A stretch of DNA of 63,997 nucleotides, the filler included, from Sanchytrium tribonematis (lineage: Eukaryota), in assembly GCA_018985235.1 (NCBI GenBank). It is 7 parts of 7 records of this genome, joined end to end, with 100 filler letters (N's around TTAATTAATTAA, not from the genome) between each part and the next. Parts side by side here need not be neighbours in the genome. Positions count along the whole stretch, not along the records: positions 6,066 to 12,022 come from JADGIG010000565.1; positions 12,123 to 18,034 come from JADGIG010000567.1; positions 18,135 to 47,007 come from JADGIG010000055.1; positions 47,108 to 53,012 come from JADGIG010000568.1; positions 53,113 to 59,009 come from JADGIG010000569.1; positions 59,110 to 63,997 come from JADGIG010000666.1; 1 more part is not named here. The stretch is one strand, 5' to 3'. Both the position numbers and the translations under genes were made by a program. Positions 6,066 through 63,159 of the stretch are shown piece after piece. The notes below the pieces were generated by a model, which saw only the letters and a list, made by a program, of their open reading frames with translations, did no database searches and was not told the DNA's origin. Each line of letters starts with the position of its first letter. The first letter of the stretch is position 1.

Positions 6066-6217
6066 CACAAATATCATGAACAAATCAAGACTGCAGACAT
6101 GACAGAGACATTTAAGAACTTGAGACGACAATTGCCATTGACTAAACAGGAAATTGAGTGGGAAAAAGTAATTTTAATTTGATTTAGGTGGCTGGTTATC
6201 AAATGCTCAAAAAATAA
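6066..6217 (+). CDS. CAP1: F-actin capping protein alpha, C-terminal fragment, join(6066-6167,6188-6217)
   Basis: Not in ORF track. Reads ...MTETFKNLRRQLPLTKQEIEWEK|VAGYQMLKK*, matching the CapZ-alpha FK.LRRQLP.T...I.W.K...Y motif after removing a 20-nt intron. Confidence 0.85.
6168..6187 (+). other. 20-nt spliceosomal intron (phase 0)
   Basis: GTAATTTTAATTTGATTTAG; contains an in-frame TGA; removal restores the conserved C-terminus. Confidence 0.8.
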
Positions 6218-6230
6218 AATAAATTATTTA

Positions 6231-8629
6231 TTAAATGGCTGTTTGATTGCCCACTTTTGGCTTTTGTTTTCGCCACTGTCGAATGTTTAATATCAATTGC
6301 TGTGAAATAGCACCAAAGACAATCCCAGATATCAAGATTCGAATCATTTTCATCAATGATAAATCAATTAGAGCCATTTGGATTGGTTTGATATTTGACA
6401 GAATAATGGAGTTAGTTTGGGTTGAATTGGACATTTGGGTGACAGTTTTGGCGAATAGCAGGGTAGTTGAGACAGGTAAAATTGGTGTAGATGTTAAAAT
6501 GCGAGTGGGAATAGAAGGACCTAAATAAATGACAAATTACGAGTAATCTGGGTCATATCAGACTCATTAATAGAGAAAATGATAGTCGTGGCTCTCTCTG
6601 CTTCCATATGTGTTGTATTTGGTGCGTTTATTGTAGATTCTACAGAGTCTGGCCAATTTCGCGTGGTTGAGGCTAGATTTGTTAAAGTCGAGACTGTCGT
6701 ACTTGTAGCAACATATCTCGGTAGCACCTCTCCAAGAGCCAATATTCTACAGGTGCTCTGACTAGCCGTGTAAATCCCATTTAAATTGCATTGATTTTTA
6801 AATGTTTTACCAAACACTCCTGGTGCCATTGGATTATTGGCCAAACTACAATTTGATAACCCTATTGCATTGCTAATCAATACGTCATTCACTCTGTTAT
6901 TCCGTAAATACAGCTGAGAGGGTGCTAGAAATGACAAATTGCCACTCAAATAATTATCATTGAAATAGAAACTAGAGCCATTGAATTGGAAATTGATGCA
7001 GCCACTCAAGTAATTATGAGATATGTCTAATGTAGTAGCATATTGAAGGGATTTCGGGATGCTGCCAGTGAATGAATTGTTGGAAATATTAAAATAACTT
7101 AAATCTGACAAAATAGTTGGAATATTTCCAGTCAAATTGTTGTTTGACAAGTCAAATGTGGTGAGTGTTGATGGCAAATCATATGTGATGTTGCCCTGCA
7201 TCCCATTATTGTCCAATTTAAGCGTTTTAATACCTTGGGGAAGAGTCTTTGGAAATTTGGTAAATTTGTTAAAACTCAATCTCAGATCGTTAATTGTAGA
7301 GTATCCCAAATCCACATCACCAGATAACTGATTTTATGATACATCAACTAGTGAATAAACCAATGGCTTAAATTTCTGCAAATTACCAGAAAATGAATTC
7401 CACGACAAATCCAATTTTGTGATGCTATTCGTCAAATTAAGACTTGCAAGGTCTCCTGTTAGTTTATTATGCCCAATTAACAAATCAGTAAGTCCTGCTG
7501 GCCATGAGGTGGGCAGTATACCCGTCAATAAATTATTATTCAAATTCAATGTTAAAAGCGAATTTGGTAAATTTGGAATCGTTCCATTTAATTGGTTATT
7601 GCTCAAATCAAGAGTAGTCATTGCGCTATTAAGTGTAGGAATGGACCCGTAAATCTTATTTCTGGCTGCTTGAAAATTCTTTAGCGTTGCAGGGAAAGTA
7701 TTTGGTAATTTGTCGTAAATTAAATTGTCTGATATATTCATTTGTTGGATATTTGGTGGAAACGATGGAAGAGTTGTAAATAAGTTACCACCAATAGAAA
7801 TCCTCTGGGTCCCAACTGGAAATGAAGTCGGCAAAACACTCAATTGATTTTCACTCAAGTCCAAATCAAATAATTTTGATGGAAGTGAATTTGGAATAGC
7901 ACCTTGTAATACATTAGCTGATAAATACAAATATTTAATTGAGTTGGGAAGGTTGTTTGGAATGGTTCCAGTTATCAAGTTCTGATTGAGGTCAAAATCA
8001 AGAATATAACTTGGGCTAGGAAAAGATTTGGGGAATTGTGTCACTAAATTGTCATACATGAACAAATTATTCAGACTAGCCGGTAATGGAGGTACTTGAG
8101 TGAATTTTCCACTTTCTAAATACAAATCCGTGATGCTATTCGGAAGTGAAGCTGGCAATCCCGTCAATTGATTACTAGAAGCCCCAAACTCAATTAATTG
8201 ACTAGGTAGCGTATTTGGAATAGTACCTTGGAATTTACTATACCATAAATACAAATATAAGATACTGTTTGGTAGATCACTCGGAATTGTGGTATTCAAG
8301 GGCGTAGAGACGATTTCCAAATAAGTCAAAGCAGACGGGATAAATTGACTTTTCATCGTCCCATTGACATTTCCACCAGTAAGTCGAAATCCATCAAGAC
8401 GCTCATTTGGTGCGGTACCTGAACAGTACATGTAAAGATCCCCGAGACTACTACTTATAGTTGTCGTGCAACAATCTGCTGGAATACTTTGATAAAGCAC
8501 TGGATCCGTTAAATGAAGATTCAAACCCTGTAAAAAGTTGAGAATAACTGGGCAATCAACAGTAACTCCATATAGGTTCGTGATAAAGATCAAATAGATC
8601 ATCAAAATAGATTTTAGAGCAGTCATCAT
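6231..8629 (-). pseudogene. LRR receptor-like surface protein with one in-frame TAA (7334-7336) and a 20-nt intron
   Basis: Signal peptide, DC..CC..C cap, many LP.SL / L.G.IP LRRs, Ser/Thr stalk, TM, basic tail; DVS*NQLSG continues in the same frame. Confidence 0.75.
6521..6540 (-). other. 20-nt spliceosomal intron (phase 1)
   Basis: GTAATTTGTCATTTATTTAG; joins the stalk to the TM-coding ORF 6231-6434. Confidence 0.8.
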
Positions 8630-9116
8630 TTGGAAATGAAACTTTGAACGGCCTAGACGAGTTTTTGATGGCTTTTAATCGTGCGCTGATTATACAGTAG
8701 AATCCAATTTTCAAATAAATATTTACAATACCAATCATGGCAACATGGCAAAGCGCAGCAATTCCTGATGATATTCACTTTTTTATTAAAACTTCAGTTT
8801 GATGTTCCATTTTTTGCTTTTGATTTCTCAAATACTCAATGTTTAAAAGCAATTGCTGTGAAATGGGCACCAAATACAATAGCAGATATTCTTTGCTCAA
8901 ATATGGTGGTGTATTCAGCCCACTTTGAGAAAAGCGCCCATATGTTGGATCTCCAGTATGAATTATCAAATCATGAAATGACAGCAATCTGTTGGGACAG
9001 TATGATATAGTGTCTGTTATATGAAGATTTAGTCCTTATAAGAAGCCCATAATGACTGGACATGGCTGTCAAAAGTCAAAACACGGTGTTTTTAAAAAAG
9101 AATAAAATTTAATAAA

Positions 9117-9757
9117 TTAAAATTGATTTTCTTTGTCAGTTAATGGGACATACATGACATCCATCAATGATTGTTTGTGATACTCATTGCCATTTCTTGT
9201 GACTAGCATTAATTTTTGATCTTGTTTGCCAACTGGAATTAATAATCTGCCATGATTGGATAATTGTTGTAATAAATCAGAATGTAATTCACTTGCAGCA
9301 GCACCTACATGAATCACATCATAAGGAGCATATGGCTTATATCCGAATCTGCCATCTACTGTAAAATATTGTAAATTGGTGATTTCTGGATTACCCTTTG
9401 AAACATTATTTTGAGATAATTTGACCAATTCTGGTAAATGATCAATGGCAATCACTTGATTATGGGTCAATTTAGCAAAACACGCTGATAAATACCCTGA
9501 TCCACATCCAATATCCAATATTTTATCATTTTCATGGATATTTAATAATTCTAATGCGTATGCGTGCATGTGGGGTGCTGAAATCGTAGCACCATATCCA
9601 ATAACTTGTGGGCTATCTGAATATGGGTGATTTGGGCAATAAAATTGACGATTGATTGAGACATGGCATAAAATACTTGATGAGATTTGATAATGGATGC
9701 TTCTTGTAGATTCTGGAGTAGTTTAATGTTGGAAGTGGCACTGCAAGTCCATGCCAT
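9117..9757 (-). CDS. PCMT1: Protein-L-isoaspartate O-methyltransferase with a 1-nt frameshift near 9655
   Basis: MAW..S..SN..L, PY.DSPQ.IG.GATISAPHMHA, LDIGCGSGY, APYDVIHVGAA, V.YVPLTD; split across two frames with no intron-like sequence. Confidence 0.85.
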
Positions 9758-9791
9758 TTGTGTTTTGACTAAAAATCTCCTAATTAAAAAT

Positions 9792-9992
9792 TTATTGATT
9801 TTCTGCAAAATCTGATTTTTGCTTTATTGGGCCCAATTTTGGTTTAAATATCTTGAAATCAAAATATTTCTGTAGTTCTTTCTTTAATTTGTCAATTTCA
9901 TCTTGCATTTTATTGATAATTAGTTGATTTTGATGCATTTCTATAAAATGTCTTTCTTTTAAAATTTTACAATTTTGACAAGAATCACACAT
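9792..9992 (-). CDS. Small coiled-coil hypothetical protein
   Basis: 66-aa ATG ORF filling the gap; stop fused with AATAAA. Confidence 0.45.
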   Translation of the reverse strand: MCDSCQNCKILKERHFIEMHQNQLIINKMQDEIDKLKKELQKYFDFKIFKPKLGPIKQKSDFAENQ

Positions 9993-10045
9993 AATGGCCT
10001 ATTTATAAGGAATATTTAATTTACAAATCAAATTTATCAATTTAT

Positions 10046-10954
10046 TTAATCACAAGTCAGCAACAAACAGCCTCCAATTAAGCAACTCTTTTGTAATACC
10101 TCTAAAACAGTCAAATCACTGGCAATTGGCATTAAATGCCCTTGAGCATCAATTTCTACTCGTACTCTCTCATTAATTTGTGCCATTTCCAATAAACCAC
10201 TAATATGCGCATATACATCCACTTTTTCAAATAAAATGGATTCTGAATTGATTTTAACAATAACAGGCACACAGAATGACTCATCAAGTACTGGAATATA
10301 CTGCGCATTAGCCAATTCTCCCACTACTTTAATCTTCAATTCATCCAATATCTGGTATATTTTATCAAATTTCTCATTTTGCAATTTAATCATTTTATCG
10401 GCATTCATTTGCTTTCTCTCTCGTAAAATGCGTTGCTTTATACAATTTTTTTTGATTTTATCAAAATACTCATCTTTAAAATAGTGATTTGCCACATTTA
10501 TCAATTCCAAACATTCCTCATATTTCTCACATTTAAAGAGTGAATTAACTGCTTTAAAGTATGCTTTAACCTGCATTCTATCCATTTTCAACACATCTAT
10601 GCAAATCAAATAGCAACTACGGAAATTACTCAACATTAAATGAGATTGTGCCAAATTTAATTTCAACACAATTTCCAATTCTTTCCCTACTGTCTGCTCC
10701 AATCCCCGTTTATAATATTGAATAGCCTCTTTATATCTCTTTAATGTATACTGCTCATTCCCTTTTTGTTTAAAATTCATTGCAATCTCTTCTGGATTCC
10801 CTTCATAAACCAATGATTGAATGGCTTCTAATTCCACATGATCACTCATATTCTCTGGTAATTCTGTCATAAATAGTGGTGTATTCTCTAAATATGCATT
10901 AATATCCACCTGTTTTCTTTCCGCAGTGGATTCTTTGATTTCGTCTTTGGTCAT
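10046..10954 (-). CDS. CNS1: TPR co-chaperone Cns1/TTC4
   Basis: TPLFMTELP...LEAIQSLVYEG.P.EIA.NFK.KGN followed by TPRs; first ATG at 10954. Confidence 0.85.
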   Translation of the reverse strand: MTKDEIKESTAERKQVDINAYLENTPLFMTELPENMSDHVELEAIQSLVYEGNPEEIAMNFKQKGNEQYTLKRYKEAIQYYKRGLEQTVGKELEIVLKLNLAQSHLMLSNFRSCYLICIDVLKMDRMQVKAYFKAVNSLFKCEKYEECLELINVANHYFKDEYFDKIKKNCIKQRILRERKQMNADKMIKLQNEKFDKIYQILDELKIKVVGELANAQYIPVLDESFCVPVIVKINSESILFEKVDVYAHISGLLEMAQINERVRVEIDAQGHLMPIASDLTVLEVLQKSCLIGGCLLLTCD

Positions 10955-11161
10955 CAATCCGTGTTTCCTCCGCAAACTAGATGAAAAAGAAGGGATTTTA
11001 AAATTGAATAGTCGATTTATTATCAATGACTCAACATGGCGGCTTAAGGTAACAAGTGTGTGGGTACTATGATTAGGAAGTGTTTTTGATGCACCATTTT
11101 TTGACACCAATTAATTTATGTTTAAAAATAAATTTTATTGTCAAGTGTCTCAAGCCCCTTT

Positions 11162-11536: not shown

Positions 11537-11690
11537 TAGTTGATAATTGACTAGAATGGTCCTTTTATCATCATTACAGATTCTGTCATTGGTTACAGAA
11601 ATAGCACAGTGTCTTGAATCCAATCAATCAAGTGCTAAACACTGAATACAGGTCTAAGCACGGTATTTCATAAATGTAATTTATTATGTT

Positions 11691-13788: not shown

Positions 13789-14779
13789 TTGGTTCGATCT
13801 TCCATCGGGATAATTATCAAATGCGGCTCCCCTGCCGCATCTGTGAAATATATCTACATGAAGAAATCTAAGCAATTTCAGTACGATTTAAATGATTTAA
13901 TGGAAATTTATGATAATTTGGAAAATGACGAATATTTAGCATGTATCACTGTAAACCCACAACACAATCCAACTGGGATCAATATGAGTGAATCACAAGT
14001 CAATGGATTGATTCAATTTGCTGATAAACACAAATCTGCACTTTTAATTGATGATGCAAATTTCGGTATTTGTAGTGCTGCAAAACCCACAATTGCATTA
14101 AAATTATTAGCTAACTACATTAAATCAGATGCATATAGTGGTAGCTTACTATGGTGTCAAGTGAGATCACTCGGTAAGCAATTCTCCTCAAATGGATGGG
14201 GAATTGGTAAATTTAATTTATTTAGGTTTCTGTGTGGCACATCCATCTGTGTTAAAACCATTGATGTGGAAATACTTTTATGCGCATTCATATGGTTCTG
14301 GTGTCCCATTACAACTAGCCATGTCTAAATTTTTAAATGATCCAGCAAGTACGCAATATTTGTCAAAAGTGAATGAAACCATGATTTTAAAGAAGCAATT
14401 CATTAAAAAGAGGTTTTTAGATTTAAATTATCCATCTGATGCTCTGATTGTAGGTGAATGTACATCTTACATGTTATTTGAAATCCCTCCTAAATTTCAT
14501 AAATTGTTGCAATCTCAAGTGGAGATGCTAAAACACAAGAAATCTAATAATTTAGATGTGTATCATGAAGATGATGGATATAACTATTTGGAAATTGCAT
14601 ATAGAGAACATATTGCAGAGAAATGTGGGTTGGTATTCGGATATTGCAGTATGATTAATCCTGAAAATACTGAAGATTATTATCCTGCCATGTTGAGAAT
14701 GTTTTTAGGACCATCTATGGATGTATTGGCTGAAGCAATGGATAGATTAGAAAAATGTGGATTCGGATGGAGTGAATAA
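13789..14779 (+). CDS. Class I/II PLP-dependent aminotransferase-fold protein, apparently 5'-truncated, join(13789-14206,14226-14779)
   Basis: NPQHNPTG, LIDDA, SLGKQFSSNGWGIG|FCVA (PLP Lys), LRMFLG; N-terminal part of the fold is missing. Confidence 0.75.
14207..14225 (+). other. 19-nt spliceosomal intron (phase 1)
   Basis: GTAAATTTAATTTATTTAG; restores GWGIGFCVAHP. Confidence 0.85.
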
Positions 14780-18134: not shown

Positions 18135-18135
18135 T

Positions 18136-21100
18136 AAAATTCCAATTGTTCCAAAAAGATTTGTAATTCCGCCTGCTCCGACTCAGACTAACTTATATAA
18201 AACTTGTAAATCAAAAAAGAACGTTGCTATGATCCTAAGTGGTGGTCCATCGATGTATTATAACGGCTATCTTAAGGTTCTCAATGACCTTAATGTAGTG
18301 GCTAATTTTTTCCCAGACTCCAACACCTCTGCAATGTGGTACAATCGAGATGCAATAGATTTAAATAAGCGAAACCAATTCGGTATGGGATCTTCGTGGG
18401 TTTTAGACTCTAAAAATGGAAAAATTACAAAGGTTACAAGTTTTGAAATTGCCACTAATGCCTCTCGAGATACGGTACAAATGCTGACTCACAACAATGG
18501 ATCTATGTTCATTTATCCTCCTTTTGATGGATACGATGCCCCAACCCTATTTAAGTGGAATCAAATGGGATATTATGTCGTAGGACCTTCGATCGATTCA
18601 CAGGATTGGCAAGTGAATGCTAATACTGATTCAGTACTGTCAAATGTACAGACTTTTTTAGATTCCGATTCAGATCAAGGCTACATTTTGTCCTGCAGTG
18701 GCTATAGTAATGTTTGCTTAAATGCACTACCCAGAATGGTAGGATTATTTTATAGTTATGGATATCAATTTGTGAGCTTGTCTACATGTTTGAACACCAC
18801 AGCAAATACAATTCCTGTTGCACACCCCGTGAGCTACAACAGTCCAGACAAATCTGTCACTTCTGGTACTGTCAGCAGTTTTTGTGGTCCAAATTACAAC
18901 AATCAGAATTGCGATGCCAATTATTGCTGTTCCATTTTTGGTACGTGTGGTCTAAATAAGAACTTTTGCTATGGTGACTATTTTTGTGGATGGTTGTGCA
19001 AAGGTGATACACCACCAGTGGTTGACGGTGCTTTAGAAGAACCAATCACAACTTGTTTGCCTGGAAATAAAAAGAAAGTCGCATTGACATTTGATGATGG
19101 ACCGCATTCCAATTACACCAACTTATATCTGGACATTTTAAAGGCAAGAAATATTACTGTTACTTTTTTTGCGAGCGGGTACAATTTGATTAAAAACGAA
19201 AAAGTTTTCAAAAGAATTATAAACGAAGGCCATGAAATTGCGCACCACACTTGGAATCACAGTGATTCTCAAGTATTAATGAGGACGCCGTATGCTTTTG
19301 ACTTGGATATGAATTCTACTTACAATTTATTGGTTCAATACACGGGGAAACATCCTTACTTTTTCAGACCACCATATGGTAGTTTCAATCAACTCACAAT
19401 GAATCGATGGAAGCAACTCAATTATCTTCCAATTATTTGGGACATCGACTCCAATGATTGGCGAAATCCGGACAAGTTTGACCTCGCATTTCAAAATATT
19501 AAAGATCAATTTTTGCAAGATACTGAGAGTGGACATATCATACTTTGTCACGATATTCATCCGACCTGTTTGGCTCATTTAAATGATATCATAGATCTTT
19601 TTCACAGTTACGGATACACATTTGTCAAAACTAGCGACTGTATTGGAGAGAAACCATTTTTAGAAGATCCCCACCCTCCTACACCTACTACCAAATATAC
19701 TGTACAATATCCGCCTACAAATGCTATACATAGCACCGCTATACCACTTACAACTGACGCGCCCCTCTTTTCAAATGCCACCATGCCACCTGCGCCACAA
19801 CAATTTCAAGCGTATGGACAATGCTCGAACAAAAAGGTTCACATATTTGTAGAGGATGGCCCTAGTGGCGATACAGTTGCAATGTTCAATGCTTTTAAGA
19901 CCTTGAAAATCCCTTTGACTTTTTTCATGAGTAATGACTCTCTGGATGAGCCGAGACAGATATTAGACATCAGCAAGGTTGACGATGTGGCACTTCTATT
20001 AAATACCATGCCAGTCACATCGAATAGTGCCATAGTCAATCAGAGCACATTCGATGCGTATGTGAATAACACTCGAGAAATTCTTCAAACTCTTACACAC
20101 AATCAAGCCGTAAAATTTGTTAAATTCGCAAATAATATGTACGACCAAGCTGTCACTGATAGACTCAATGAATTGGGCTACTATTTAATTAAAAGTAATT
20201 TGGATCCTGATGATTATGCTAAAAATGTTTCTCACACCATTGATGTTTTAAGTCAACAACTAGCATCAAATAGTAATCAAGGATATATGGTAAATTGCGG
20301 TGGATTTACCTCAGTATGCGCAGATGCAGCATCACAAATTAAAGATCTCTTTATAAGCAAAGGTTACACTTTTGTTTCTATAGAAGATTGTCTAGGTCTA
20401 GACCCACAAATTATTGAGATTCCTACAAAACAAATTTTTGGAAGTAATGCGACAAAGCCTGTAAGTGGATTGGTTGCCTCAGATGCACTTTGTGGACCAA
20501 ATTACGCAAATCAAGGCTGTGACACATTTTATTGTTGTAACATGTATTCTTTTTTAATTTAGATTTGGAAATTGTGGGCTTTCGGTGAACGATTGCTATG
20601 CAGATTATTTCTGTGGCTGGAAGTGTCATGGAAAAACTCCCAATTTGAAGCCGGGAACTCTGGAACAACCTATCAAGACTTGCGTCAACGACAAGGAAGT
20701 GGCACTTACATTTGATGATGGCCCACATGCTAATTATACTGACTTATACTTGGATATTTTGAAAGATAGAAAGGTAACGGCGACATTCTTTGTCAGTGGG
20801 TACAATCTTGTTAAAAACAGTGCCCAATTTATAAGAGAACTCAATGAAGGCCACCAAGTTGCCCATCACACCTGGAATCACACAGATAGTCAACTTTTGA
20901 TTCAAAATCCTGCAATGTTTGACTATGACATGAATTCTACAATTAATTTAATGCACAAGTTGAGCGGGTCTTGGCCAAATTTCTTTAGGCCTCCTTTTGG
21001 AAGCTACAATGTGGATGCTATGAACCGATGGAACGATTTAAAATTACTACCAATTATGTGGGATGTCGACAGTAACGATTGGAGAAATCCTGACAAGTTC

Positions 21101-31266: not shown

Positions 31267-32297
31267 ATGAGCGAAATTCCATCATATAGAGGTACTCTTG
31301 AAGGTCACGGAAATTGGGTTACAGCATTAGCCACCACTCCACATTATCCAGATATGTTGGTCAGTGCATCCAGAGATAAGACAATTTTAGTCTGGAAATT
31401 AACAAGAGAATCACAATACGGATATGCAAAAACTGCATTACATGGACATAATCACTTTGTCAGTGATATTGCTATAAGTGCTGAAGGATCTTATTGTATT
31501 TCTTCATCTTGGGATAAAACCCTCAGATTGTGGGATTTACAAACTGGTGAGACTCGCAGACGTTTTGTCGGACATGATGCTGATGTGTTGAGTGTTACAT
31601 TTTCACCTTCCAACAAAGTCATTTTGAGTGCTTCAAGAGACAAAACAGTCAAGTTATGGAATACTATTGGAGAATGTAAAGACACAATAAAGGATGCCCA
31701 CAGTGAATGGGTATCAACAGTTAGATGCTCTCCTAATCTTAAAAATGAAGCATTTGTTACAAGTGGATGGGACAAATTATTAAAGGTAAGTTATTTGATA
31801 AGATTATTTGGTGATAGTTGCTACTTCGGAGCTTTACTGCGATGAGATTTAAATATCCCAATGATCGAACAAAACTAACGAAGGTATGGGATATCAATAC
31901 TGGTAAGCTTAAGACCAAACATATGGGTCACACTGGATATGTCAACACTGTCACTATTTCACCTGATGGTTCATTATTTGCTTCTGGTGGTAAAGATGGT
32001 ACCACCATGCTTTGGGATTTGAATGAAGGCAAGCATCTTTATTCTTTGGATGCGCATGATCCAATCAATGCTCTTTGCTTTGCTCCTAATCGCTATTGGC
32101 TTTGCGCAGCTACAGACAAATGTATTATTATTCATGACTTGGAAACTAAGAGAATTGTTGATGAATTGAAACCCGATGTAGCTGAGGGTGAGGCTGTACC
32201 AAGACCAACGTGTTTAACTTGGTCTGCTGATGGTAGAACCTTGTTTGCTGGATACACTGACAACAAAATTAGAGTTTGGGAGATTACTGGCTCATAA
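31267..32297 (+). CDS. ASC1: RACK1/Asc1 WD40 ribosomal scaffold, join(31267-31785,31884-32297), 310 aa
   Basis: [52 protein letters not shown]. Confidence 0.96.
31786..31883 (+). other. 98-nt spliceosomal intron (phase 0)
   Basis: GTAAGT...ACTAACGAAG; restores WDKLLK|VWD. Confidence 0.92.
31793..31870 (+). ncRNA. Candidate intronic box C/D snoRNA, U24/snR24-like (degenerate boxes)
   Basis: RACK1/ASC1 intron is the snR24 host in yeast; contains TTGCTACTT-CGGA (guide + D'-like), GATGAGA (C'-like), TTGATAA (C-like), ATGA (D-like). Comparison to snR24 is from memory. Confidence 0.6.
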
Positions 32298-36031: not shown

Positions 36032-36743
36032 TTACTCCTGATTTTCGTCTGCCTCCTCATCATCGGGCTGATGCTCCCAGGCAGCTTTTACAACTAGCTG
36101 ACGTCCTTCGATTTCTTTTTCATTGAATAGACTGATGGCTTTTTTTTGGTCCTTCTCAGAAGCAAATTCTACAAACCCAAAACCTTTGCTTAAAACTCTT
36201 GTTCTAGTTTTTCTCGTAATTACCTGAGAATTCGTCACTGTAAGACCCTGCTCTTCAAACAATGTCTTCAAATTCTCGCTTTCATATTTCCATGGCAAAT
36301 TTCCAACATAGACGTTGGTCTTCGTCGCAACTTTTTCTCCCTCAATAACCTTCTAAATAAAAAATTAGTACCGGTTTGCCACCCTTATAATTGGCACTAG
36401 GAACACGAGAACTCTCAGCAGCATCTCTTCCACCTCGGCCACGACCCTTTCCACGTCCTCTACGACCTCTGCTACTTCTTTTCTGCTCAGATCTTTCTTG
36501 TTGGACTTCGACTTTAATAGCTCTATCCAATAAAGTAGTTTGGTCCATTTTTGTAATTAGTTCATCAATGTCATCAGCCTCGATTTCCACATAACCATAT
36601 CCCAATTTCTTGCCATTTCTTTCCTTGATCTCTACAGAAATAACTTTAGCGGAGTCTTTAAAATGATCTTTTAATTGCTCATTAGTAACCTCATAACTAA
36701 GATTACCCACGTACAACTTACAACCATTTTGTTCTTCTGACAT
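36032..36743 (-). CDS. RRM-RGG-RRM RNA-binding protein (Sbp1-like), join(36743-36372,36352-36032), 230 aa
   Basis: LYVGNL, GYGYV, RGG tract, then VYVGNLPW and SKGFGFVEF after splicing. Confidence 0.85.
36353..36371 (-). other. 19-nt spliceosomal intron (phase 0)
   Basis: GTACTAATTTTTTATTTAG; brings RNP2 of RRM2 into frame. Confidence 0.88.
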
Positions 36744-37186: not shown

Positions 37187-38393
37187 TTATTTAGGTGCAT
37201 TGAAAATGAATAAATTATTTGTAGCTGCTACCGCCAAGGTATTTTCTTTAGGGTGCCAACTGGCATACAACATTTTCTTAGAGAAGTCCATTTCCTTGCT
37301 CACTATATTAATTCAAGATACCAGTCATTTTCTTTTTCAATTTTCTCTGTTTAAATGCTACTTTGTCTGCTTGCAAAACAGTTTCCGCACCTGTGTGAGC
37401 TCCATAAATGTGGAAATAATTACTATAGGATCCAGTCAAGCAATATTCCGAATCGCCTGACCAAGTGCATTCAAATTTATCAAAAATACAGTCATTTTCG
37501 TATAGGTCACACAGCTTAGATCGAAGCTGATCATGAATTGCGATTGAATTTACAGGCTTTGAATTATTTCGGATATCCCAAATTTTCAAATGAAGGTAGT
37601 CTCTTGCCAATAAGTAATTACCGTCAGGCGAAAATTGCACATCACTTATGCTAGAAATAATTTCGCTGAAAAATGTCCGCGCAGCAGGGTCCTCTTCCTC
37701 CCCAAAGTTGGTTGCATTTTGGTCTAAAAGAGCATTTTGTCTCATATCGCAAAGCTTAATGCATCCTCTAGAAATAGCATATGCGAGTATATTACAAGAG
37801 ATGGGGTGAAATTGTGCGGCAGTTATCACCTCTGTCAATTCTTCCATATTCGGTGGCTTCATGTCTACAATGTTAAAGGATTTATCAGGGTGAGAAAGAT
37901 CCCAAAGATTAACTCTTAAGTCGTCTGCACTCAAAAATGTACAGCCGTCACTATTAACACTGATGCTGTTAATATGATATGCATGAGCATGCTGAAACGA
38001 TTTTTTAGGCTGGGCAGCAATTACTGATGGATTTCCTTTTTCGTAAATTTTCCACAGCTTTATAGTTTTGTCATTAGTGCTTAGTAAAAAATGGCCGTTT
38101 GTATTATATGGAAGCCATTTAAGTTTGTTGATTTTTTCTTCAATTTCTAAAGATTTTAAATAATCAAATTCAGGTTCATGACTTTGGAATTCAGTATAAA
38201 ACTGATATTCTTTGAATTGCTGTTGTTTGGTGCCTTTTTGTTGTCTAAATAAGACGACTCGGCCACCCCTATCTCCCGTCGCTAAATATTCCCCAGACTT
38301 GTTAAATTGAATTGCACTTATTATATCAGATTCGGTATAAGAATCTTCGTTCTTTTCTCCGAAACATTGCACACACTGCCAATCTAAATTCAT
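37187..38393 (-). CDS. CDC55: PP2A regulatory subunit B55, join(38393-37322,37302-37187), 395 aa
   Basis: [32 protein letters not shown]; exon 2 gives [24 protein letters not shown]. Confidence 0.96.
37303..37321 (-). other. 19-nt spliceosomal intron (phase 1)
   Basis: GTATCTTGAATTAATATAG; restores the conserved B55 C-terminus. Confidence 0.92.
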
Positions 38394-42858: not shown

Positions 42859-44434
42859 TTATTGCCAAGTTTTAAAGAATCCCTCAATTTGGGCCTTCAA
42901 TTCACCTTCGATCGATTTGTCCAATTGTCCTTTTGATCTAATCTTTTCAAGTACTTCTTTTCCGGTTTCTCTCATGTACGGTAAAAATGCTTTTTCAAAC
43001 TCAGTGATTCTTTTAGTTTCAACTTTATCTAAAAATCCATTCACACCACAATAGATCAAAGCCACCTGGTCTTCAACAGGTAGAGGCTTATACTGATCTT
43101 GCTTTAATAATTCAGTTAGTCTAGCACCTCTATTTAATAAGAATTGGGTAGATGCATCCAAGTCACTACCAAATTGTGCGAATGCAGCAACTTCACGATA
43201 TTGAGCCAAAAATAATTTCAAAGAGCCAGCAACTTGCTTCATAGCCTTTAATTGTGCTGCGGAACCTACACGAGATACACTTAGACCAACATTAATAGCT
43301 GGTCTTACACCTTTAAAGAATAACTCTGCTTCCAAGAAAATTTGACCGTCAGTGATCGAAATGACATTAGTTGGAATATAAGCAGAAACATCACCTCCTA
43401 AATTAATATGTTGTACCTTGAGTTTCAATGACTGGAAGTGCTGTCAAAGAACCGGCCTTGAATTCATCATTCATCTTTGCAGCTCTTTCCAATAATCTCG
43501 AGTGCAGATAAAACACATCACCAGGGTAAGCTTCACGACCAGGAGGACGTCTTAACAATAAAGACATTTGACGATAAGCAACAGCTTGCTTGCTCAAATC
43601 ATCGTAAATAATTAATGAATGCTTTCCGTTATCTCTAAACCACTCACCCATAGCACATCCAGAATATGGAGCTAAGAATTGAAGTGGAGCAGCCTCGGAT
43701 GCTGTAGCAGCGACTACAATCGAATATTTCAAAGCATCATTTTCTTCTAACGTTTGAACAAATTGGGCAACTGTAGATCTCTTTTGCCCGATCGCAACGT
43801 ACACACAATAAAGTTTTTTGGACTCATCGGAGCCCTGGTTCCATTTCTTTTGATTTAAAATAGTGTCCAGAGCAACAGCTGTCTTTCCTGTCTGACGATC
43901 ACCAATAATTAATTCTCTTTGCCCTCTACCAATTGGCACCATACTATCAATACATTTAATGCCAGTTTGCATAGGCTCATGTACAGATTTTCTTGGAATA
44001 ATACCAGGAGCCTTCAATTGTACTCTAGTTCTAGTAGATGATTTAATTGGCCCTTTCCCATCGATAGGATTGCCGAGAGCATCAACAACTCGACCTAATA
44101 GCTCAGGACCAGTTGGAACATCGACGATATTTCCAGTTCGCTTCACAGTGTCTCCTTCTTTAATTAATCGATCATTTCCGAAGACCACAACACCGACATT
44201 ATCAGCTTCCAAATTCAATGCCATTCCTTGAAGTCCACTGCTAAATTGCACCATCTCTTCTGCTTGTACATTTTTTAAACCATACACACGAGCAATACCA
44301 TCTCCGATGCTTAATACTCGACCACTTTCTTGTAATTCGGGCTGGTTTCCAACTATTTTACCCTCCAATATACTGGTTAATTCTGCTGCTTTTGGCTTTT
44401 GCAAACGTACCAAGCTTGTGACTCTCGCGAACAT
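42859..44434 (-). CDS. ATP1: Mitochondrial F1 ATP synthase alpha, join(44434-43417,43397-42859), 518 aa
   Basis: [51 protein letters not shown] across the intron. Confidence 0.98.
43398..43416 (-). other. 19-nt spliceosomal intron (phase 1)
   Basis: GTACAACATATTAATTTAG; boundaries fixed by the conserved ETQGGDVS motif. Confidence 0.96.
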
Positions 44435-48913: not shown

Positions 48914-50255
48914 TTAAAGAGAAGCTAATTTTCCAAATAAATCTTTCCAATTTCCTGTCGGATCAATTAAATAAATAGAATCATAAGCGTTCTGTATTTG
49001 AGAATCTGTGGCATTAGGATACAATGAATGGATTGCATTTTCAAATTTCTGCTTAGATGAAAGAATATGAACATCAGGAGACAGTACCACAGGCGAGTCA
49101 ATCAAAGGTCTCGATGTCTTTTGTTTCATTGTTCCTCTCACTGTGCCATATTCATCTTCATTTGTTCTACCTCCAAAGGTCTCTATATTTGAATTGTCGG
49201 TTATAGGAGCCGAGATGAGAGGAGCTTGAAAATTGGAAATTTTGAGTGTTCCACTTTCATTATTCTTAGATTTCGCTTTCACTGTACCCTTTTTTACCGT
49301 TCCAAAATCCCATTCAATATCTATTTCTCTAAGTTAATATTAGATACTTTTCGGCATCACTTTCATTTTCTTCCTCTTCCTTTGATGGATTCTCTGCTTT
49401 TATTCTATCTCTTCTTTCTATCAACTCAGTTAAGTAGCTTGTCTTTTTAACTTTGACGAAAAATTTGTGCTTTAGAAGCTCCTTCGCAGATGGTCTACTC
49501 TCTGGATCTTTTTGCAAACAGGCGGCGACAAATTCTTTAAATTCTCTTTTGTAATCACCTTCCAGAGCTGGAGGATCATTCTTCGGAATAATAAAAAGAA
49601 CTCGCATTGGATGCATTTCAGCATGTGGTGGTTCGCCTTTCGAAAGCTCGATAGCTGTAATTCCGAGTGACCAAATATCGGCTTTATAATCATAACCGAC
49701 TTGTTTAATAATTTCTGGCGCCATCCAGAATGGTGTGCCAACAAACGTATTTTTTTTCGTCATTGTGGCACTTATTTGTCCACTGACCCCAAAATCTGCC
49801 AATTTAACACTTCCATCTCCAGTCAATAAAATGTTTGCACTTTTTATATCCCTATGAAGTTTTTGCTGAGCGTGAATGTATTCCAGCCCCTTCAGTACTT
49901 CCCTTAAAATTATACAAGAATACACTTCTTCAAAACCTCCAATTGTCTTTAATAAATCCAAACAACTTCCACCAGCCGCATATTCCATAACAATCCATAA
50001 ATTTGTAGTTTCTAAAAATGAAGCATAGAATTTGGTAATAAATGGGCAATCTAATTGAGACAATATTTGAATTTCTTGCTGTATGTCCTCGATTTCATCT
50101 TCGGCTTGTTCCAAATTAATCACTTTGATCGCGACAGCTTCTCCAGATTCAGCGTTATATCCTTTATATACACTGCCAAATGATCCCTTTCCAATTCTAT
50201 TTTGTCTAACAAAATGACTTGCATTGGAAATATGAGTTTGACTCTGTTGAGACAT
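48914..50255 (-). CDS. GCK-III (MST3/STK25-like) STE20 kinase, join(50255-49348,49328-48914), 440 aa
   Basis: [47 protein letters not shown] after splicing. Confidence 0.92.
49329..49347 (-). other. 19-nt spliceosomal intron (phase 2)
   Basis: GTATCTAATATTAACTTAG. Confidence 0.88.
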
Positions 50256-50801: not shown

Positions 50802-51804
50802 ATGTTGAGCAGTTCCGATAAGTTTCAATCGTCCTCCACAGGATACCTCTGTAAGCAATATAAGATAGACAAATGTATTGGAAAAGGAAGCTTTGGCTGT
50901 GTACTGAAATGCAAAAAAGGTCAAAGCTTTTACGCTATTAAAGTTTTACATAAAACTCCAGAATTTTATGAACTGGGATTACATGAGATTTCGTTACTTA
51001 AAAATCTCAAGCATCCAAATGTTGTGAGCTTTGTACATCACTTCGTCGACCAGGGTCATTTAAGTATTGTATTTGAATTGTTAGGACCTAGTCTTTATGA
51101 GATATTAAAGAAACGAGACTACAAAGGATTCAATTTAAAAGTCATTGCAAGTATATCAGAACAGCTTTTATCGGTATTGATCTATTTAAGAGAAAAGAAA
51201 ATATGCCACGCTGATTTAAAGCCAGAAAATGTTTTGTTTGTTGAAGAGTTTACTACGAAAATCAAATTGATCGATTTTGGAAGTGCCTGCATTGACCCAA
51301 AATACTCATATATACAATCAAGATATTACAGGAGTCCAGAGGTACTTCTTTCTGCTCCATATGGAGTACAAATGGATATGTTCAGCTTTGGGGTTATGCT
51401 GGCTGAGTTGTATACTGGAAAGCCATTGTTTGCTGGAGAAAACGAGCACTCTCAGCTAATACTTATATCTAAAATATTAGGGAAACCGCCGCAATACATA
51501 CTTTATGCGTCAAATAGCTTAAAAATTGATAAATTCTTTGGTACTTTATGCTCATCTAGACTGCTTTTATAATTGGCAACCATGTCATTCAAAAAGAAAC
51601 ACGTATACCGGTTGCAATATTATAAAAAGTCCAGTGGAGGTTCGAGAGTCTCTGGGTGTCGTGCTCCAGTTACCGCAAACACACGATTTTATAGATTTGC
51701 TATCGAAATGTATAACATGGGATAGTATACAAAGAATTATACCCTCTGATGCAATAAGCTCTAAATTTATAAAAGGTCAAAAAACCACGTTTTTAGGATC
51801 CTAA
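50802..51804 (+). CDS. DYRK/Yak1-family kinase, join(50802-51540,51560-51804), 327 aa
   Basis: HADLKPEN, IDFGSAC, YIQSRYYRSPE. Confidence 0.9.
51541..51559 (+). other. 19-nt spliceosomal intron (phase 1)
   Basis: GTACTTTATGCTCATCTAG; brings kinase subdomain XI (FIDLL.KC..WD...R) into frame. Confidence 0.88.
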
Positions 51805-51852: not shown

Positions 51853-52390
51853 ATGAATTTTAATTCTGATTTTGTAGATGTCTTAAATTCTTTGCCGAAT
51901 GAGATCGTTAGTAAGCTGACCACTCTAAAGGAAAAAGATGCTATTGGAAATCAATATTTTGACGAGCTGGAGCAAAAAACCAAGAATATTATAGATCTAG
52001 ATGAAAAATTATCTGATTCAGATACCACAAAATTGTATGATCTGTTTAAAAGAACATTGACTATATATGAAGAAAAAGTAGCGATAAGCTCGCAAATGCA
52101 TGACCTTGTTGAATCAAATATTAGAAGAATTGATGAAGATTTACAAAGAATGTCAGCGAATGACAATGTGGCTCCAACCATGCATATAGAAGTTGAGCAA
52201 AAGTATTGCTATTGTCAACAACCGGCTAGTGGAGAGATGGTCGGTTGTGATGCTGACAATTGTCCTATTGAGTGGTTTCATTTGGGATGCACAAATTTGA
52301 TCAAAATCCCAACAGGTAAAAATTATTTATGAAGGCAAATGGTATTGCGACGAGTGTTTAGGAAAAAGAAAAGTTGGGATAAAAAGATAA
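51853..52390 (+). CDS. ING-family PHD finger protein, join(51853-52315,52335-52390), 172 aa
   Basis: LNSLP.E coiled-coil, YCYCQ....GEMVGCD..CPIEWFH..C, P.G|KWYC..C. Confidence 0.93.
52316..52334 (+). other. 19-nt spliceosomal intron (phase 1, AAG acceptor)
   Basis: GTAAAAATTATTTATGAAG; required for the last two PHD Cys. Confidence 0.92.
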
Positions 52391-54116: not shown

Positions 54117-54326
54117 GTCTCATTGAAAAGGGCATCGTGCGATTTTATGAAAAGTCTAGTAATTTGATTGGATAAAATTAGAATATTCTCGTTTATGACT
54201 AATCAAATGTGGACGTCAATGCTCAATATAAAAACACTGCCCATCTTTAATAGAGCTTAATAAAATTATCTTTTAAAGGGAGTTCACCAGAGTTTTTTGA
54301 AACTGTCATTCAAACGACTTCTTAGA

Positions 54327-58633: not shown

Positions 58634-59009
58634 TTGTACATTGGGGGCGTCGCTGCTTTTTACAGAAAATTGGGATGACATGATTTGTCAAGCATTAGAA
58701 TGTTCTTTAAATGATAAAATTCAAAATAAACGTTGTTTACTTTAGCTTCTTGACATTATGTTAATTATAATATTCTAATAGCTTGTTCAAAAGTTCAATC
58801 GAGAATTATAATTGAATTGATAGATTAAAAACTTAAAACTTGGAGGAGTGCGCAAATCCCATGATTTCCATTTATTAAATTAATGACTACATTTATTCTT
58901 GCTTAATAATCCTTCTTCACTTCCATTTGGGTGCCTCTAATCGGATGAATCGTATAGGGGTCTTTGTTTAACATGACTGGAGATTCTTCCAAATCAGAAG
59001 TAGAATCTG

Positions 59010-59998: not shown

Positions 59999-60488
59999 GT
60001 TTTATCCTAAATCATTTAGGAGTTGAATTGAAGTACAAAATAACCCCTTTGAATGTCTTTACCATCTAGCTTGAGCGTATTCGATGTTGGAAACAATACT
60101 TTATCTATCTATTTACCAACAACCCAAATAACAATCATGTAATGCGCTCTATTTTAATGAAAATTTGTTAAGTGGTCAATGCTAGTTCCGTACGCCATTT
60201 ATTTTTTATGTTAATTGGTATGCTTTTAGTGAAATCACCTGCACGCACAAATGTAATGTGTGCATATAAATTAAATCGTCCATTTTGTGTCATCCTTTCT
60301 CAAACTGCCGTCCAACAAGAAAAACAAAAACAACACGGGACATTGAAAACAAATCCCAAGAAATGGTTGCTAATGACGATTATTCCTATTTATGTGCGTC
60401 CAAAGAACTAGCGATTTCTCAAAATCAAGTTAGCGGGTACCATATTTCATCACAATTTGGACTTTTTTTAAAAATTACCCATTTTCAA

Positions 60489-63159
60489 ATGTACGCGCTA
60501 CTTCTCTCTATTTTGATATCTGTCTCACAAGACTGTCCCATACTAGTCCAATTAGCACTAGTTATGGATTTCAAGTATACAAACACGGATTATTTCATTC
60601 AATATGAAAAAGATTGTTGTTTGGGAGTCGGGGTAATTTGTGAAAATAATCTGGTGACAGAGATTCATTGGGGATTTCCAGCAGATCACCTCAAGAATTC
60701 AGTACCAGTTGTCACATTCCCTCCAAATTTACGTGTATTGGACCTGGCAAATATCAAAAAATCAATGATAATTAATGATTTACCAAGTTCATTACAAATA
60801 TTGGATTTAACTTATGCTGAAAATGTAATAGTTGATTTAAAGAAGATTCCTTACTTGAAAGTGCTTCGATTGAAGATTAATAATCTCGACAACAGAGCAA
60901 TCTTGCCAAGATTGCCAGACTCATTGGAAGAATTAAACATCAACTATTTTGGTGACGATTATTTGCCCCTGAACCCTGTCAATTTGATAAAAATTTACTT
61001 TGTATGCATTTACAATGTAAATTCCCCAGATATACTATTTCCCATATTGCCAGATACTATTGAATTTATTACTCTTGCGAATTGTAGAATGTATGGTCCT
61101 ATTGCTGTAGATTTTAAAAGTTTAATAAGCATCAATGTGTATGAAAATAAAATTTCTGGAAATTTAACTATTTCTTCCCCAAATATTACAAAATTAGATT
61201 TGGATGGGAACGAATTTGATAGGCTATTCGTCAAATATCCTGAAAAACTCACATTTTGTAGTAATTATTATAATTATTTCGAGTCCGATAATGAAAGTGA
61301 ATTACAGAAATTGTTACCGTATGGTTGCGGATATAATTTGAAAGCCAGTTCCCCTCCAGAATGCCCAAATATCATTGAATTTGCAAAGCAATTAAATATG
61401 CACAAAGTGGCACCAGATTTGTTTGTCAAATTAGTGAGTGGTCCAAATTGCTGTGTAACATTAAGAAATTATGTTGCTTGCATTAACAACAAAATAGATG
61501 CGCTTTATTTTCAAGATTTGCGATTGAATGGCACCATTAATGGCACTTTACTACCGCCTTCTTTTTATGGACTTTACTTGGGTTTCAACAAGCTGTCTGG
61601 TCCATTTCCTGATTTGAAAATGGTATCTTTAACTTACCTTTCCCTAACTGATAATCAATTAAGTGGAACAATTGACAATAAACTACCAAATGGAATTGCT
61701 TATTTAGATATTAATTCAAACAATTTAAATGGAACAATTCCACTATTTCCTGGTTTGGGATATCTTAGCTTCGCCAATAATAAGTTTAGCAAAATAGATA
61801 ACACTCTGACAGTGAATCAAGATATAGATTTCAGCTTGGAAAACAATAACTTTTATGGAGTTGTAGATTTGTCACATACAAATTCGCGTTATTTATATAT
61901 TCAAAATAATTATATTGAACAAATCATAGTTTCTCAGCCAATCACCATTTCAAATTGCGATATCTCAATGAATAATATTCTACCAGGGAATTTCACAAAT
62001 TTCATGAATTGTAGGCCATATATTCAACGAATTGATGCATCTTCATTGGACTCTTGTAAATATGTTGTGAAAATGTTTCAAAAATTAGGGATTTCTAATC
62101 CATTAATTGAAACAAATTGCTGTCACTCGAGACTTGAATATTACACAACTGTATGTATTGGAAAACAAGTGATTGAATTAAAGATATCTTCTACAAATAT
62201 ATTTAAAACTGTAAATGGATATGCATTTGATGCTGCAGATGTGCCACCATCTCTACAAAAATTGACAATTACTGGTTTATTTAATCAAACTGCCATATTT
62301 CCAAATATGACATCCACAAATCTGACATTTCTGGAAATCAAATCTGCCAATATTGACAAAATATTTATAAAGTCTCCCACATTGCCCAAATCATTGTCCA
62401 AATTGCATATTTTATATTGCAATCTTACTGGTAGTATCATGAATTTACCACCCAGTTTACAGGAATTGCAAATTCAAGGTAATTATTTGACTGGCCCATT
62501 TCCAGTGTTTCCTGTTACTTTAAATAGCATCATACTTGGTGATAAAGCCAAAGAAGGTAATTCATTTAATGACAAGTTGATTTTACAACAGCCATTGTCA
62601 ATAATTTTGGGAAGTACAAATATTTATGATGTATTCATTCAAAACACGAGTTTATTGACAAATTGTGACTTGTCATTCAATCCGCTATTAAATAGTACCA
62701 ATATTGGTAATTATACAATGTGCAAACAATATTATTTGACTCCAAAAATAGACAAATTACAAATTGGCTCTGCTGTTTCATCTATCAATTTGTCTTTCAC
62801 AAATACTGCAGCACAAGAATATACAACAGATTCCACCCAGGATGATTCAAAATCAAGTAATTTGTATTTATTTAGTTGTCACCCGTGTATTTTTCAAAAC
62901 CACCACCAGAGATGTTTCAAATAACTCAGATTTGACTCTAAAAAATGACTGGAGTGAATCATCAACTTCAAAAAACTCAATAACACTCTCTAAATTTCAT
63001 TATAATGTCAAATTATTTGAAATTAATTGGAATTGGCAAATGATTACCCGATTGGAAATCAGTCTTTTGCTGATTGTGAGTTTATTAACTCGTTTAACAG
63101 TATTAAAGAGAAAGAAAACATCAAATAAGCCTCAATCTTTCACAATGGGTGATGTTTAA
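60489..63159 (+). CDS. Three-module LRR receptor-like protein, join(60489-62856,62876-63159), 883 aa
   Basis: Three Cys-capped LRR blocks (DCP..CC, ECP..CC, SCK..CC), stalk, TM, KRKK. Confidence 0.85.
62857..62875 (+). other. 19-nt spliceosomal intron (phase 1)
   Basis: GTAATTTGTATTTATTTAG; joins ectodomain to TM exon. Confidence 0.85.

What the first reader, a model, noticed from the sequence alone, without database searches (positions are those of the whole stretch)
6168..62875. Genome-wide 19-20 nt spliceosomal micro-introns in an apparent fungus
Seen: eleven GT-AG elements whose removal restores the reading frame. Nine are exactly 19 nt (14207, 20544, 36353, 37303, 43398, 49329, 51541, 52316, 62857) and two are 20 nt (6168, 6521), spread over five contigs. 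In ATP1, ING and the hevein repeat, conserved residues fix the boundaries exactly. Known: introns this short occur in chlorarachniophyte nucleomorphs (about 18-21 nt) and heterotrich ciliates (15-16 nt); typical fungal introns are 50 nt or more and even microsporidian ones are usually longer. Inference: a length-locked, remodelled splicing system evolved independently in this lineage. Gene finders with default minimum intron lengths would miss it. I cannot verify whether it has been published.
Basis: partly seen in the sequence, partly recalled or inferred. Interest (0 to 1): 0.92.

Follow-up and report, generated by a model that had tools for sequence, protein, structure and literature searches.

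The report
Sanchytrid fungi carry 19-20-base introns
Genes of this sanchytrid (a group of algae-parasitic fungi) and of its relatives are interrupted by 19-20-base segments with intron signals that are likely cut out by an ordinary spliceosome and likely are the shortest standard introns of any fungus, and public protein sets leave these genes broken in two.

Summary
All 11 elements are at the stated coordinates. They are GT-AG, 19 or 20 nt long and share GTA...YTNAYNNAG, with an invariant A six bases from the end. The motif peaks at 19 nt (11 seen, 1.8 expected). The organism groups with Amoeboradix gromovi (ATP1 94% identical, 100/100 support), so it is a sanchytrid. Relatives' truncated protein records break at the same sites; three decode as 19- or 20-nt introns followed by 12/13, 15/15 and 15/15 exon codons. 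That excludes an assembly artefact. RACK1 carries an exact 98-nt intron with the same 3' geometry and a conserved interior (likely a snoRNA host), so length is not strictly locked. A. gromovi keeps U1-70K, U2AF, SF1, SF3B1 and Prp8; only Slu7, Prp18 and U1C went unannotated. No RNA data were found, so splicing is inferred. Ultra-short introns are known in ciliates, Mikrocytos, nucleomorphs and myxozoans. I found none this short as the norm in fungi, and no report for sanchytrids, whose published proteins were predicted without introns. Earlier scan notes describe 25-38-nt introns in other fungi or allies, none in sanchytrids.

The parts
6168..6187 (+). 20-nt intron near the 3' end of a capping protein alpha gene (gene cut by the contig edge)
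   Evidence: GT-AG with A at -6; upstream exon matches PF01267 positions 230-254 of 263 and removal adds 9 residues. Weakest of the set.
6521..6540 (-). 20-nt intron in a leucine-rich-repeat gene
   Evidence: Joins 264 to 96 codons; only candidate of 45 nt or less listed at this break; identical in run X1 record 1. No homology test of the boundary.
14207..14225 (+). 19-nt intron in a class I/II aminotransferase gene
   Evidence: Only candidate join at this break; joins 139 to 184 codons; exon 1 matches PF00155; exon 2 gave no significant Pfam or PDB hit.
20544..20562 (+). 19-nt intron inside a hevein-like repeat of a polysaccharide (chitin) deacetylase gene
   Evidence: An intron-free copy of the same repeat earlier in the gene aligns in register with the spliced copy.
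31786..31883 (+).
   Evidence: Exons meet at human residues 175/176; the same break in 3 of 3 relatives; interior conserved in two relatives beyond shuffles; no Rfam hit.
36353..36371 (-). 19-nt intron between two RRM domains
   Evidence: Joins 128 to 106 codons; each exon holds one RRM. 58 joins are possible at this break, so the boundary rests on the motif, not on homology.
37303..37321 (-). 19-nt intron in the PP2A B55 regulatory subunit gene
   Evidence: Profile score 613.7 spliced against 583.0 (23-nt alternative) and 581.9 (unspliced); exon 2 hits 100 of 150 homologues; relative P0139 decodes as 19 nt plus 12 of 13 exon codons; identical in X1.
43398..43416 (-). 19-nt intron in ATP1 (F1 alpha subunit)
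   Evidence: Only the 19-nt removal gives the residue count of Blastocladiella ATP1; 116 of 125 homologues are unbroken here; A. gromovi and three ENA records stop at the same site; identical in X1.
49329..49347 (-). 19-nt intron in an STK24/25-type kinase gene
   Evidence: Relatives P0152 and P0269 (one cluster) decode as 20 nt plus 15 of 15 exon codons; P0150 and A. gromovi P0153 fit 19 nt.
51541..51559 (+). 19-nt intron in a DYRK/HIPK-like kinase gene
   Evidence: Only candidate of 45 nt or less listed; joins 254 to 81 codons; exon 2 resembles the end of HIPK2/DYRK2 domains only weakly (E 0.27-0.8); an STK-built profile did not gain from splicing.
52316..52334 (+). 19-nt intron in the PHD finger of an ING gene
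   Evidence: Three close relatives (P0127, P0129, P0131) are unbroken here and match the spliced C-terminus; A. gromovi P0128 stops at the same site.
62857..62875 (+). 19-nt intron in a long leucine-rich-repeat gene
   Evidence: Only candidate of 45 nt or less listed; joins 862 to 94 codons. No homology test of the boundary.

Best explanation
The 11 elements are 19-20-nt GT-AG segments with an invariant A six bases from their end that break conserved genes of a sanchytrid fungus, and they are likely ordinary major-class (U2-type) introns shrunk to a floor and removed by a largely conventional spliceosome. Shown: the sequence pattern, the frame repair, the same sites in related sanchytrids, and a 98-nt RACK1 intron with the same 3' end. 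Inferred mechanism: GTA pairs with U1/U6; the YTNAY motif pairs with U2 and its A at -6 is the branch point, giving a lariat loop of 14-15 nt; the AG two bases after the motif is taken by fixed distance rather than by a pyrimidine tract. That short distance would make Slu7 and Prp18 unnecessary. Deletion bias in a compact parasite genome would have eroded introns to the smallest size that can still be spliced, sparing the RACK1 intron because it likely carries a snoRNA. All 11 are non-multiples of three, so retained copies would be open to nonsense-mediated decay.
For: Pattern: GTA in 12 of 12, T at -8, A at -6 and Y at -5 and -9 in 12 of 12; length peak at 19. Homology fixes the ends in ATP1, ING, the hevein repeat, PP2A, the STK kinase and RACK1. 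Lineage: window, A. gromovi and three ENA records form a clade at 100/100. Of 12 informative read-through tails of relatives, 10 fit a 19- or 20-nt intron with the full rule, against 843 of 6703 (13%) for simulated AT-rich tails. P0139 and P0152 beat all 300 shuffles. The interior sequence differs between species while site, length and signals are kept, as expected of spliceosomal introns. A. gromovi annotation lists the core U1, U2, U5, U2AF and SF1 proteins. Precedent: branch A at the same -6 place in Stentor (PMC9505925) and Yarrowia (2 nt between branch motif and AG, PMC2483917); Slu7/Prp18 are dispensable at short branch-to-AG distance in yeast (PMC5340917; PMC10158995). A Upf1-like AAA_12 fragment lies at 52457-53011.
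Against: No spliced read or lariat was seen, so removal, its efficiency and the branch point are inferred. Short introns of E. cuniculi are mostly under 50% spliced (PMC3629993), and that may hold here. Five or six boundaries (6168, 6521, 14207, 36353, 51541, 62857) rest on motif and frame only. Two of the 12 relative tails do not fit the full rule: P0128 fails position -9, and P0001/P0123 fit 18 or 22 nt. The tails are related by descent and are not independent. P0122 alone is not better than shuffles (129 of 300). My ab initio model without a length prior recovered only 2 of the 11 exactly. snRNA genes were not found in the window and could not be sought in the genome.
Confidence: 0.86

Rival explanations
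1. A rebuilt, strictly length-locked spliceosome measures 19-20 nt from the 5' end; the 98-nt RACK1 intron is tolerated only because its interior folds out and leaves about 20 nt exposed.
For: 11 of 12 introns are 19-20 nt. The predicted fold pairs intron bases 10-12 with 85-87, which would leave 9 + 11 = 20 nt outside. Slu7, Prp18 and U1C have no row in the A. gromovi table.
Against: The fold is no better than shuffles (z -1.57; 17 of 200 as good) and the closing helix has 3 pairs. Most spliceosome proteins sought are present. Only about half of A. gromovi proteins were annotated and they are intron-blind ORFs, so a missing row is weak. One relative's ATP1 intron fits 18 or 22 nt.
Confidence: 0.08
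2. The segments stay in the mRNA and are bypassed by ribosomal frameshifting or hopping, or are removed by a non-spliceosomal enzyme.
For: No RNA evidence of removal exists here; other frame breaks in the window (PIMT near 9650, LRR near 58241) have no intron signals.
Against: Every element carries GT, a branch-like motif and AG at fixed places; none shows a shared hairpin or slippery run; the 98-nt intron has the same ends; three ING relatives lack the segment precisely; spliceosome genes are present in the closest named relative.
Confidence: 0.04
3. Assembly artefacts or chance insertions in decaying genes.
For: The window holds real broken genes (in-frame stops at 7334 and 57772, frameshifts near 9650 and 58241), and run X1 may be the source of this DNA.
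Against: X1 contigs match the window without gaps across four of the introns. Different species from EukProt, ENA and JGI break at the same codons with different inserted sequence. The hosts include ATP1, PP2A B55 and RACK1 with intact conserved exons on both sides.
Confidence: 0.02

Closest known systems
15-16-nt introns of heterotrich ciliates (Stentor coeruleus; PMC9505925, passages read)
   Same: GT-AG, conserved GUA start, AU-rich, branch A six bases from the end, two adjacent lengths, snRNP core retained.
   Different: Four bases longer here (lariat loop 14-15 nt against 10-11); a fungus; a 98-nt intron coexists; about 0.2 introns per gene in this window.
16-17-nt introns of Mikrocytos mackini and 18-21-nt introns of chlorarachniophyte nucleomorphs (PMC10245619, section 7 read)
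   Same: Narrow length range in a reduced genome; the nucleomorph range includes 19-20 nt.
   Different: Mikrocytos has a spliceosome of 17-19 proteins and highly conserved intron sequence; here the interior varies, and the relative keeps U1, U2AF and SF1 proteins. Unrelated lineages.
Microsporidian introns (Encephalitozoon cuniculi 22-76 nt; PMC3629993, PMC6349667, passages)
   Same: Fungal relatives with tiny introns plus a rare long, conserved intron proposed to hold a C/D snoRNA; short branch-to-AG spacing.
   Different: [quoted passage not shown]
Ultra-short introns of myxobolid myxozoans and Dicyema (median 22-27 nt; PMC13644364, parts 1-2 of 3 read)
   Same: Parasite genome, 5' signal reduced to GTa, U2AF retained, conventional U2 splicing proposed.
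   Different: There the branch-like A moves away from the AG as introns lengthen; here it stays at -6 even in the 98-nt intron. Lengths are broader there.
snR24 (U24) host intron of yeast ASC1/RACK1 (PMC4848094, passage)
   Same: Same host gene; a long, conserved intron retained in an intron-poor genome.
   Different: No Rfam match; no CUGA D box in the window's copy; guide function untested.

Membership tests
U2-type (major) spliceosomal intron | GT...AG ends | tested here: met
   12 of 12
U2-type (major) spliceosomal intron | Branch-point motif with an A near the 3' end | tested here: met
   YTNAY at -9 to -5 in 12 of 12; its use as branch point is inferred
U2-type (major) spliceosomal intron | Precise removal restores a conserved protein | tested here: met
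   ATP1, ING, hevein repeat, PP2A, STK kinase, RACK1; the other six rest on frame and motif
U2-type (major) spliceosomal intron | Site kept in relatives while the interior diverges | tested here: met
   10 of 12 informative tails fit 19-20 nt with the full rule; inferred from protein read-through, no DNA of relatives was obtained
U2-type (major) spliceosomal intron | Removed from the RNA through a lariat | not testable with these tools
   No RNA run listed
U2-type (major) spliceosomal intron | Organism encodes a U1/U2/U4/U5/U6 spliceosome | tested here: inconclusive
   Core proteins are listed for the relative A. gromovi; no genome of this organism is held; snRNAs not found in the window
U12-type (minor) intron | Extended 5' site and long branch consensus (motifs recalled, from no call) | tested here: not met
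   Positions +4 to +8 are variable and the branch motif has only T(-8) and A(-6) fixed
Strictly length-locked intron systems (Stentor, Mikrocytos type) | All introns within two adjacent lengths | tested here: not met
   98-nt RACK1 intron; 11 of 12 are 19-20 nt; one relative fits 18 or 22 nt
Strictly length-locked intron systems (Stentor, Mikrocytos type) | Branch A at a fixed place six bases from the end | tested here: met
   12 of 12; Stentor value from PMC9505925
Intronic box C/D snoRNA (snR24/U24) in RACK1 | Match to an Rfam snoRNA model | tested here: not met
   No hit at gathering score or at E up to 10 on the intron alone
Intronic box C/D snoRNA (snR24/U24) in RACK1 | Interior sequence conserved across species | tested here: met
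   P0135 score 51.3 (shuffle maximum 26.8), aligning to base 93 of 98; P0133 39.4 (maximum 30.5); P0134 too short
Intronic box C/D snoRNA (snR24/U24) in RACK1 | C box near the 5' end and CUGA D box near the 3' end | tested here: inconclusive
   One-mismatch C box at base 11; no CUGA, only variants at 42, 57 and 76
Intronic box C/D snoRNA (snR24/U24) in RACK1 | Antisense element complementary to large-subunit rRNA | not tested
   No rRNA of this organism in the window
Sanchytriomycota | Groups with Amoeboradix gromovi in protein trees | tested here: met
   ATP1 94% identical; clade of 5 rows at 100/100; ATP1, RACK1 and PP2A share one contig in both. One-gene tree of 22 rows; the link to Blastocladiomycota is unresolved in it.

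The most novel reading that the evidence does not exclude
A whole fungal phylum splices about 2,000 unannotated 19-20-nt introns with a spliceosome that picks the 3' site purely by counting from the branch A, has shed Slu7, Prp18 and U1C while keeping U2AF and SF1, and handles its few long snoRNA introns by looping them out. Part of the published gene loss and of the unannotated 'sanchytrid-specific' proteins would then be fragments made by intron-blind prediction.
Probability: 0.3. Interest if true: 0.88.

Novelty: new member of a known kind. Interest (0 to 1): 0.77.

Why it matters
It adds an independent origin of ultra-short introns, the first I could find in the fungi proper, below the 22-nt microsporidian floor. 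It converges on the same branch-at-minus-six geometry as Stentor while the spliceosome looks close to complete, so it is a good test of what sets the minimum intron size and of whether Slu7/Prp18 are lost once the branch-to-AG distance is fixed. The 98-nt intron is a built-in control in the same cell. In practice, sanchytrid proteomes used in fungal phylogenomics were predicted without introns (PMC8371127): ATP1, RACK1, PP2A B55, ING and an STK kinase of A. gromovi are truncated in EukProt, so gene counts and loss inventories for this phylum need re-annotation.

Tried and rejected
No whole genome is held. No RNA holder listed; this says nothing on expression. The one metagenome scan, for an ATP1 junction with a 13-43-nt insert, gave 3 hits, all false matches in intron-free ATP1 genes (L002 is mitochondrial), so no DNA of relatives was obtained. 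An ab initio model with a flat length prior found the break regions but only 2 of 11 introns exactly, among 10 predictions. Plain GT..AG counts show no length peak. Rfam gave no snoRNA or snRNA; ARAGORN no tRNA. The RACK1 intron folds no better than shuffles. The Atlas search on the 6168 exon gave an unrelated bacterial family; Pfam and PDB identified it instead. Exon 2 of the aminotransferase had no useful hit. The 150 PP2A representatives held no close relatives (best identity 65%) and served only for the profile test. Rejected by eye as introns: 7328-7342 (15 nt; better read as an in-frame stop in a leucine-rich repeat), 57755-57811, 58241-58298, the PIMT break near 9650, the break near 16295, and the 32-nt RACK1 candidate. 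Left out of the tail count: P0154, P0140, P0270 and P0134 (tail of 3 residues or fewer, or cut) and P0130 (no GT at its ING site, judged by eye); P0001 and P0123 were counted once.


Full report
Observation. The window is seven contigs joined by N spacers, 34% G+C and densely coding: 55 non-overlapping ATG frames of 100 codons or more cover 51 of 63 kb. All 11 reported segments are GT..AG of 19 nt (nine) or 20 nt (two) at the stated places, on five contigs. Ten join a long upstream frame to a downstream frame; 6168 sits at a contig edge and turns out to be the end of a capping protein alpha gene. AT-rich GTA..TAG segments peak at 19 nt (17 against 6.9 +/- 1.9), while looser patterns show no clear peak. 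The shared motif GTA..YTNAYNNAG has 11 hits at 19 nt against 1.8 expected and at most 5 at any other length from 12 to 120. The motif was derived from these elements, so the length peak is the informative part. That scan does not depend on frame breaks and found no in-frame 18- or 21-nt candidate inside a gene (1 antisense hit at 18, none at 21).

Boundaries. ATP1: of three possible joins only the 19-nt one gives the residue count of Blastocladiella ATP1, and 116 of 125 homologues are unbroken there; the nine others are five members of this clade, three partial records and one record lacking a segment. ING: three close relatives are unbroken and match the spliced C-terminus. Hevein repeat: an intron-free copy in the same gene aligns in register. 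PP2A B55: profile score 613.7 spliced against 583.0 and 581.9, and exon 2 hits 100 of 150 homologues. The joins at 6521, 14207, 51541 and 62857 are the only short candidates listed at their breaks but lack a homology test; 36353 has many possible joins and rests on the motif.

Organism. The best named ATP1 match is Amoeboradix gromovi (94%), well above Blastocladiella (88%). The window, A. gromovi and three ENA records form a clade at 100/100 in a one-gene tree of 22 rows. ATP1, RACK1 and PP2A lie on one contig in both species. It is a sanchytrid other than A. gromovi. Contigs 4 and 5 are placed by homologues; the others are assumed to belong by composition, presence in run X1 (contig 2) or a verbatim EukProt record (contig 7).

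Relatives. No DNA of relatives could be fetched, but their protein records were called without introns and read on into the intron, which lets the intron be decoded. P0139 (PP2A) fits one good length, 19 nt, followed by 12 of 13 exon codons; 0 of 300 shuffles reach that. P0152 and P0269 (STK kinase, one cluster) fit 20 nt plus 15 of 15 codons; 0 of 300 for P0152. Of 12 informative tails, 10 fit 19 or 20 nt with the full rule, against 13% of simulated tails. Against: P0128 fails position -9; P0001/P0123 fit 18 or 22 nt; P0122 alone is not better than shuffles; the tails share descent. Five records were left out (see Tried and rejected). P0271 shows a 20-nt-compatible intron at another ING site, and three relatives lack the window's ING intron, so sites turn over within the group. 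X1 contigs match the window without gaps across four introns, but X1 may be the source of this DNA.

A twelfth intron. RACK1 is split by 98 nt (31786-31883); exon 1 ends at residue 175 and exon 2 starts at 176 of the human protein. It has the canonical six-base 5' site and branch motif, with the A again at -6. All three relatives break there, and two long tails match the window's interior beyond shuffles, one to base 93 of 98. Yeast ASC1 hosts the snoRNA snR24 in its intron (PMC4848094, one passage). Rfam finds nothing and the D box is not canonical, so the snoRNA reading is likely, not shown. Either way the system is not strictly length-locked.

Mechanism. Shown: GTA at the 5' end with little beyond it, YTNAY two bases before AG, no pyrimidine tract, low G+C, lengths not divisible by three. 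Inferred: U2-type splicing with the branch at -6, a lariat loop of 14-15 nt and the 3' site set by distance. The published eggNOG table for A. gromovi (PMC8371127 supplement file 4, 3,755 rows, searched by term) lists U1-70K, U1A/U2B'', Prp40, Luc7, SF1, U2AF1, U2AF2, SF3B1, Prp21, Prp8, Brr2, SNRNP40, Snu13, Prp16/22-type helicases, Isy1, CCDC94, Cwc22, Cwc25 and cactin, and has no row for Slu7, Prp18 or U1C by identifier or name (identifiers recalled). Slu7 and Prp18 are dispensable in yeast when branch and AG are close (passages in PMC5340917, and PMC10158995), which fits a fixed -6 branch. But only about half of the proteins were annotated, so loss is a lead. A deletion bias bounded by a splicing floor is the model proposed for Mikrocytos and is the simplest here. 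Eleven micro-introns in 63 kb extrapolate to about 1,900 in an 11-Mb genome, the size of published sanchytrid assemblies; this is an estimate from under 1% of a genome.

Comparison. Ultra-short introns are known in Stentor (15-16 nt, branch A at -6), Mikrocytos (16-17) and nucleomorphs (18-21), myxozoans (median 22-27) and E. cuniculi (22-76). Yarrowia has the same branch-to-AG spacing in long introns. Cryptococcus has a small, poorly spliced class of 20-40 nt (PMC11913375, passages), so single fungal introns near this size are annotated elsewhere; a 19-20-nt norm is not. Microsporidia show the same pairing of tiny introns with a long conserved one. The finding works like the Stentor system but fails its all-introns-in-two-lengths feature.

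Novelty. Eight searches of the open-access library (listings only unless named) found no report of sanchytrid introns. The genome paper (PMC8371127; passages, sections 6 and 18, supplement searches) has 'intron' once, in its reference list, and 'splic' never, and predicted proteins with TransDecoder on genomic contigs. Its main supplementary PDF and one table were too large to read, one PDF was a scan, and the second species' sheet was cut at 171 rows; these may bear on the claim. Subscription journals are not searched. Other papers seen as passages: PMC10459994, PMC5381614, PMC8476143. Eight of 11 intron-split window frames looked up are verbatim in the collection under EukProt, as is the ATP1 fragment; the ING fragment is also in the collection. 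Earlier scan notes describe 25-32-nt introns in Rozella and about 38 nt in Neolecta, none in sanchytrids; I did not test them.

Verdict. Observation confirmed, interpretation partly supported. A new, apparently unreported case of ultra-short U2-type introns, the shortest norm I could find for a fungus, with a long-intron exception and a practical effect on published proteomes. RNA proof is lacking. Interest 0.77.

Noticed in passing
window 9120-9760 (-), break near 9650: The protein-L-isoaspartate methyltransferase gene has a one-base frameshift with no intron signals. An X1 contig that differs at 19 of 1,717 bases has no gap there, so the shift is shared by two alleles or copies. Pseudogene or programmed shift.
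   Followed up: partly
window 6066-8700, 53113-54119, 57061-58687, 60270-63159: A large family of leucine-rich-repeat surface-type genes; summed X1 depth reaches 3,000 over 6663-6861 against about 100 elsewhere. Some copies carry in-frame stops (7334, 57772) or a frameshift (near 58241).
   Followed up: partly
window 15713-17942 (+): An MLKL-N/RPW8-like frame followed by a kinase with Sel1 repeats that lacks its first subdomains; broken near 16295 with no fitting intron.
   Followed up: partly
P0130 and P0271 (ING relatives, one cluster): An intron at a second ING site, 20-nt-compatible in P0271; in P0130 the read-through suggests a start other than GT, which may be an error or a non-canonical donor.
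   Followed up: partly
P0200 (Lobosporangium STK kinase) and P0009 (Rhizophagus ATP1): Public records of distant fungi end or lose a segment at the same codons as the window's STK and ATP1 introns, a hint that these sites are old and shrank.
   Followed up: no
window 6066-12022: X1 contigs differ from the window at about 1% of sites over several kb, while 35500-47000 is identical: heterozygosity or duplicated segments.
   Followed up: no
window 21314-26878 and 38696-42847: A 1,854-codon Tel1/ATM-type kinase and a 1,383-codon ABC transporter have no frame break, showing how intron-poor the genome is.
   Followed up: no
window 52454-53056 (-) and 3904-4770 (+): A Upf1-like AAA_12 fragment and a CstF-64 gene: decay and 3'-end machinery are present.
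   Followed up: partly
L002 1-20068: An AT-rich mitochondrial contig of an unrelated eukaryote with very long fused or extended reading frames (nad5, rps3 regions); a false hit of my scan.
   Followed up: no
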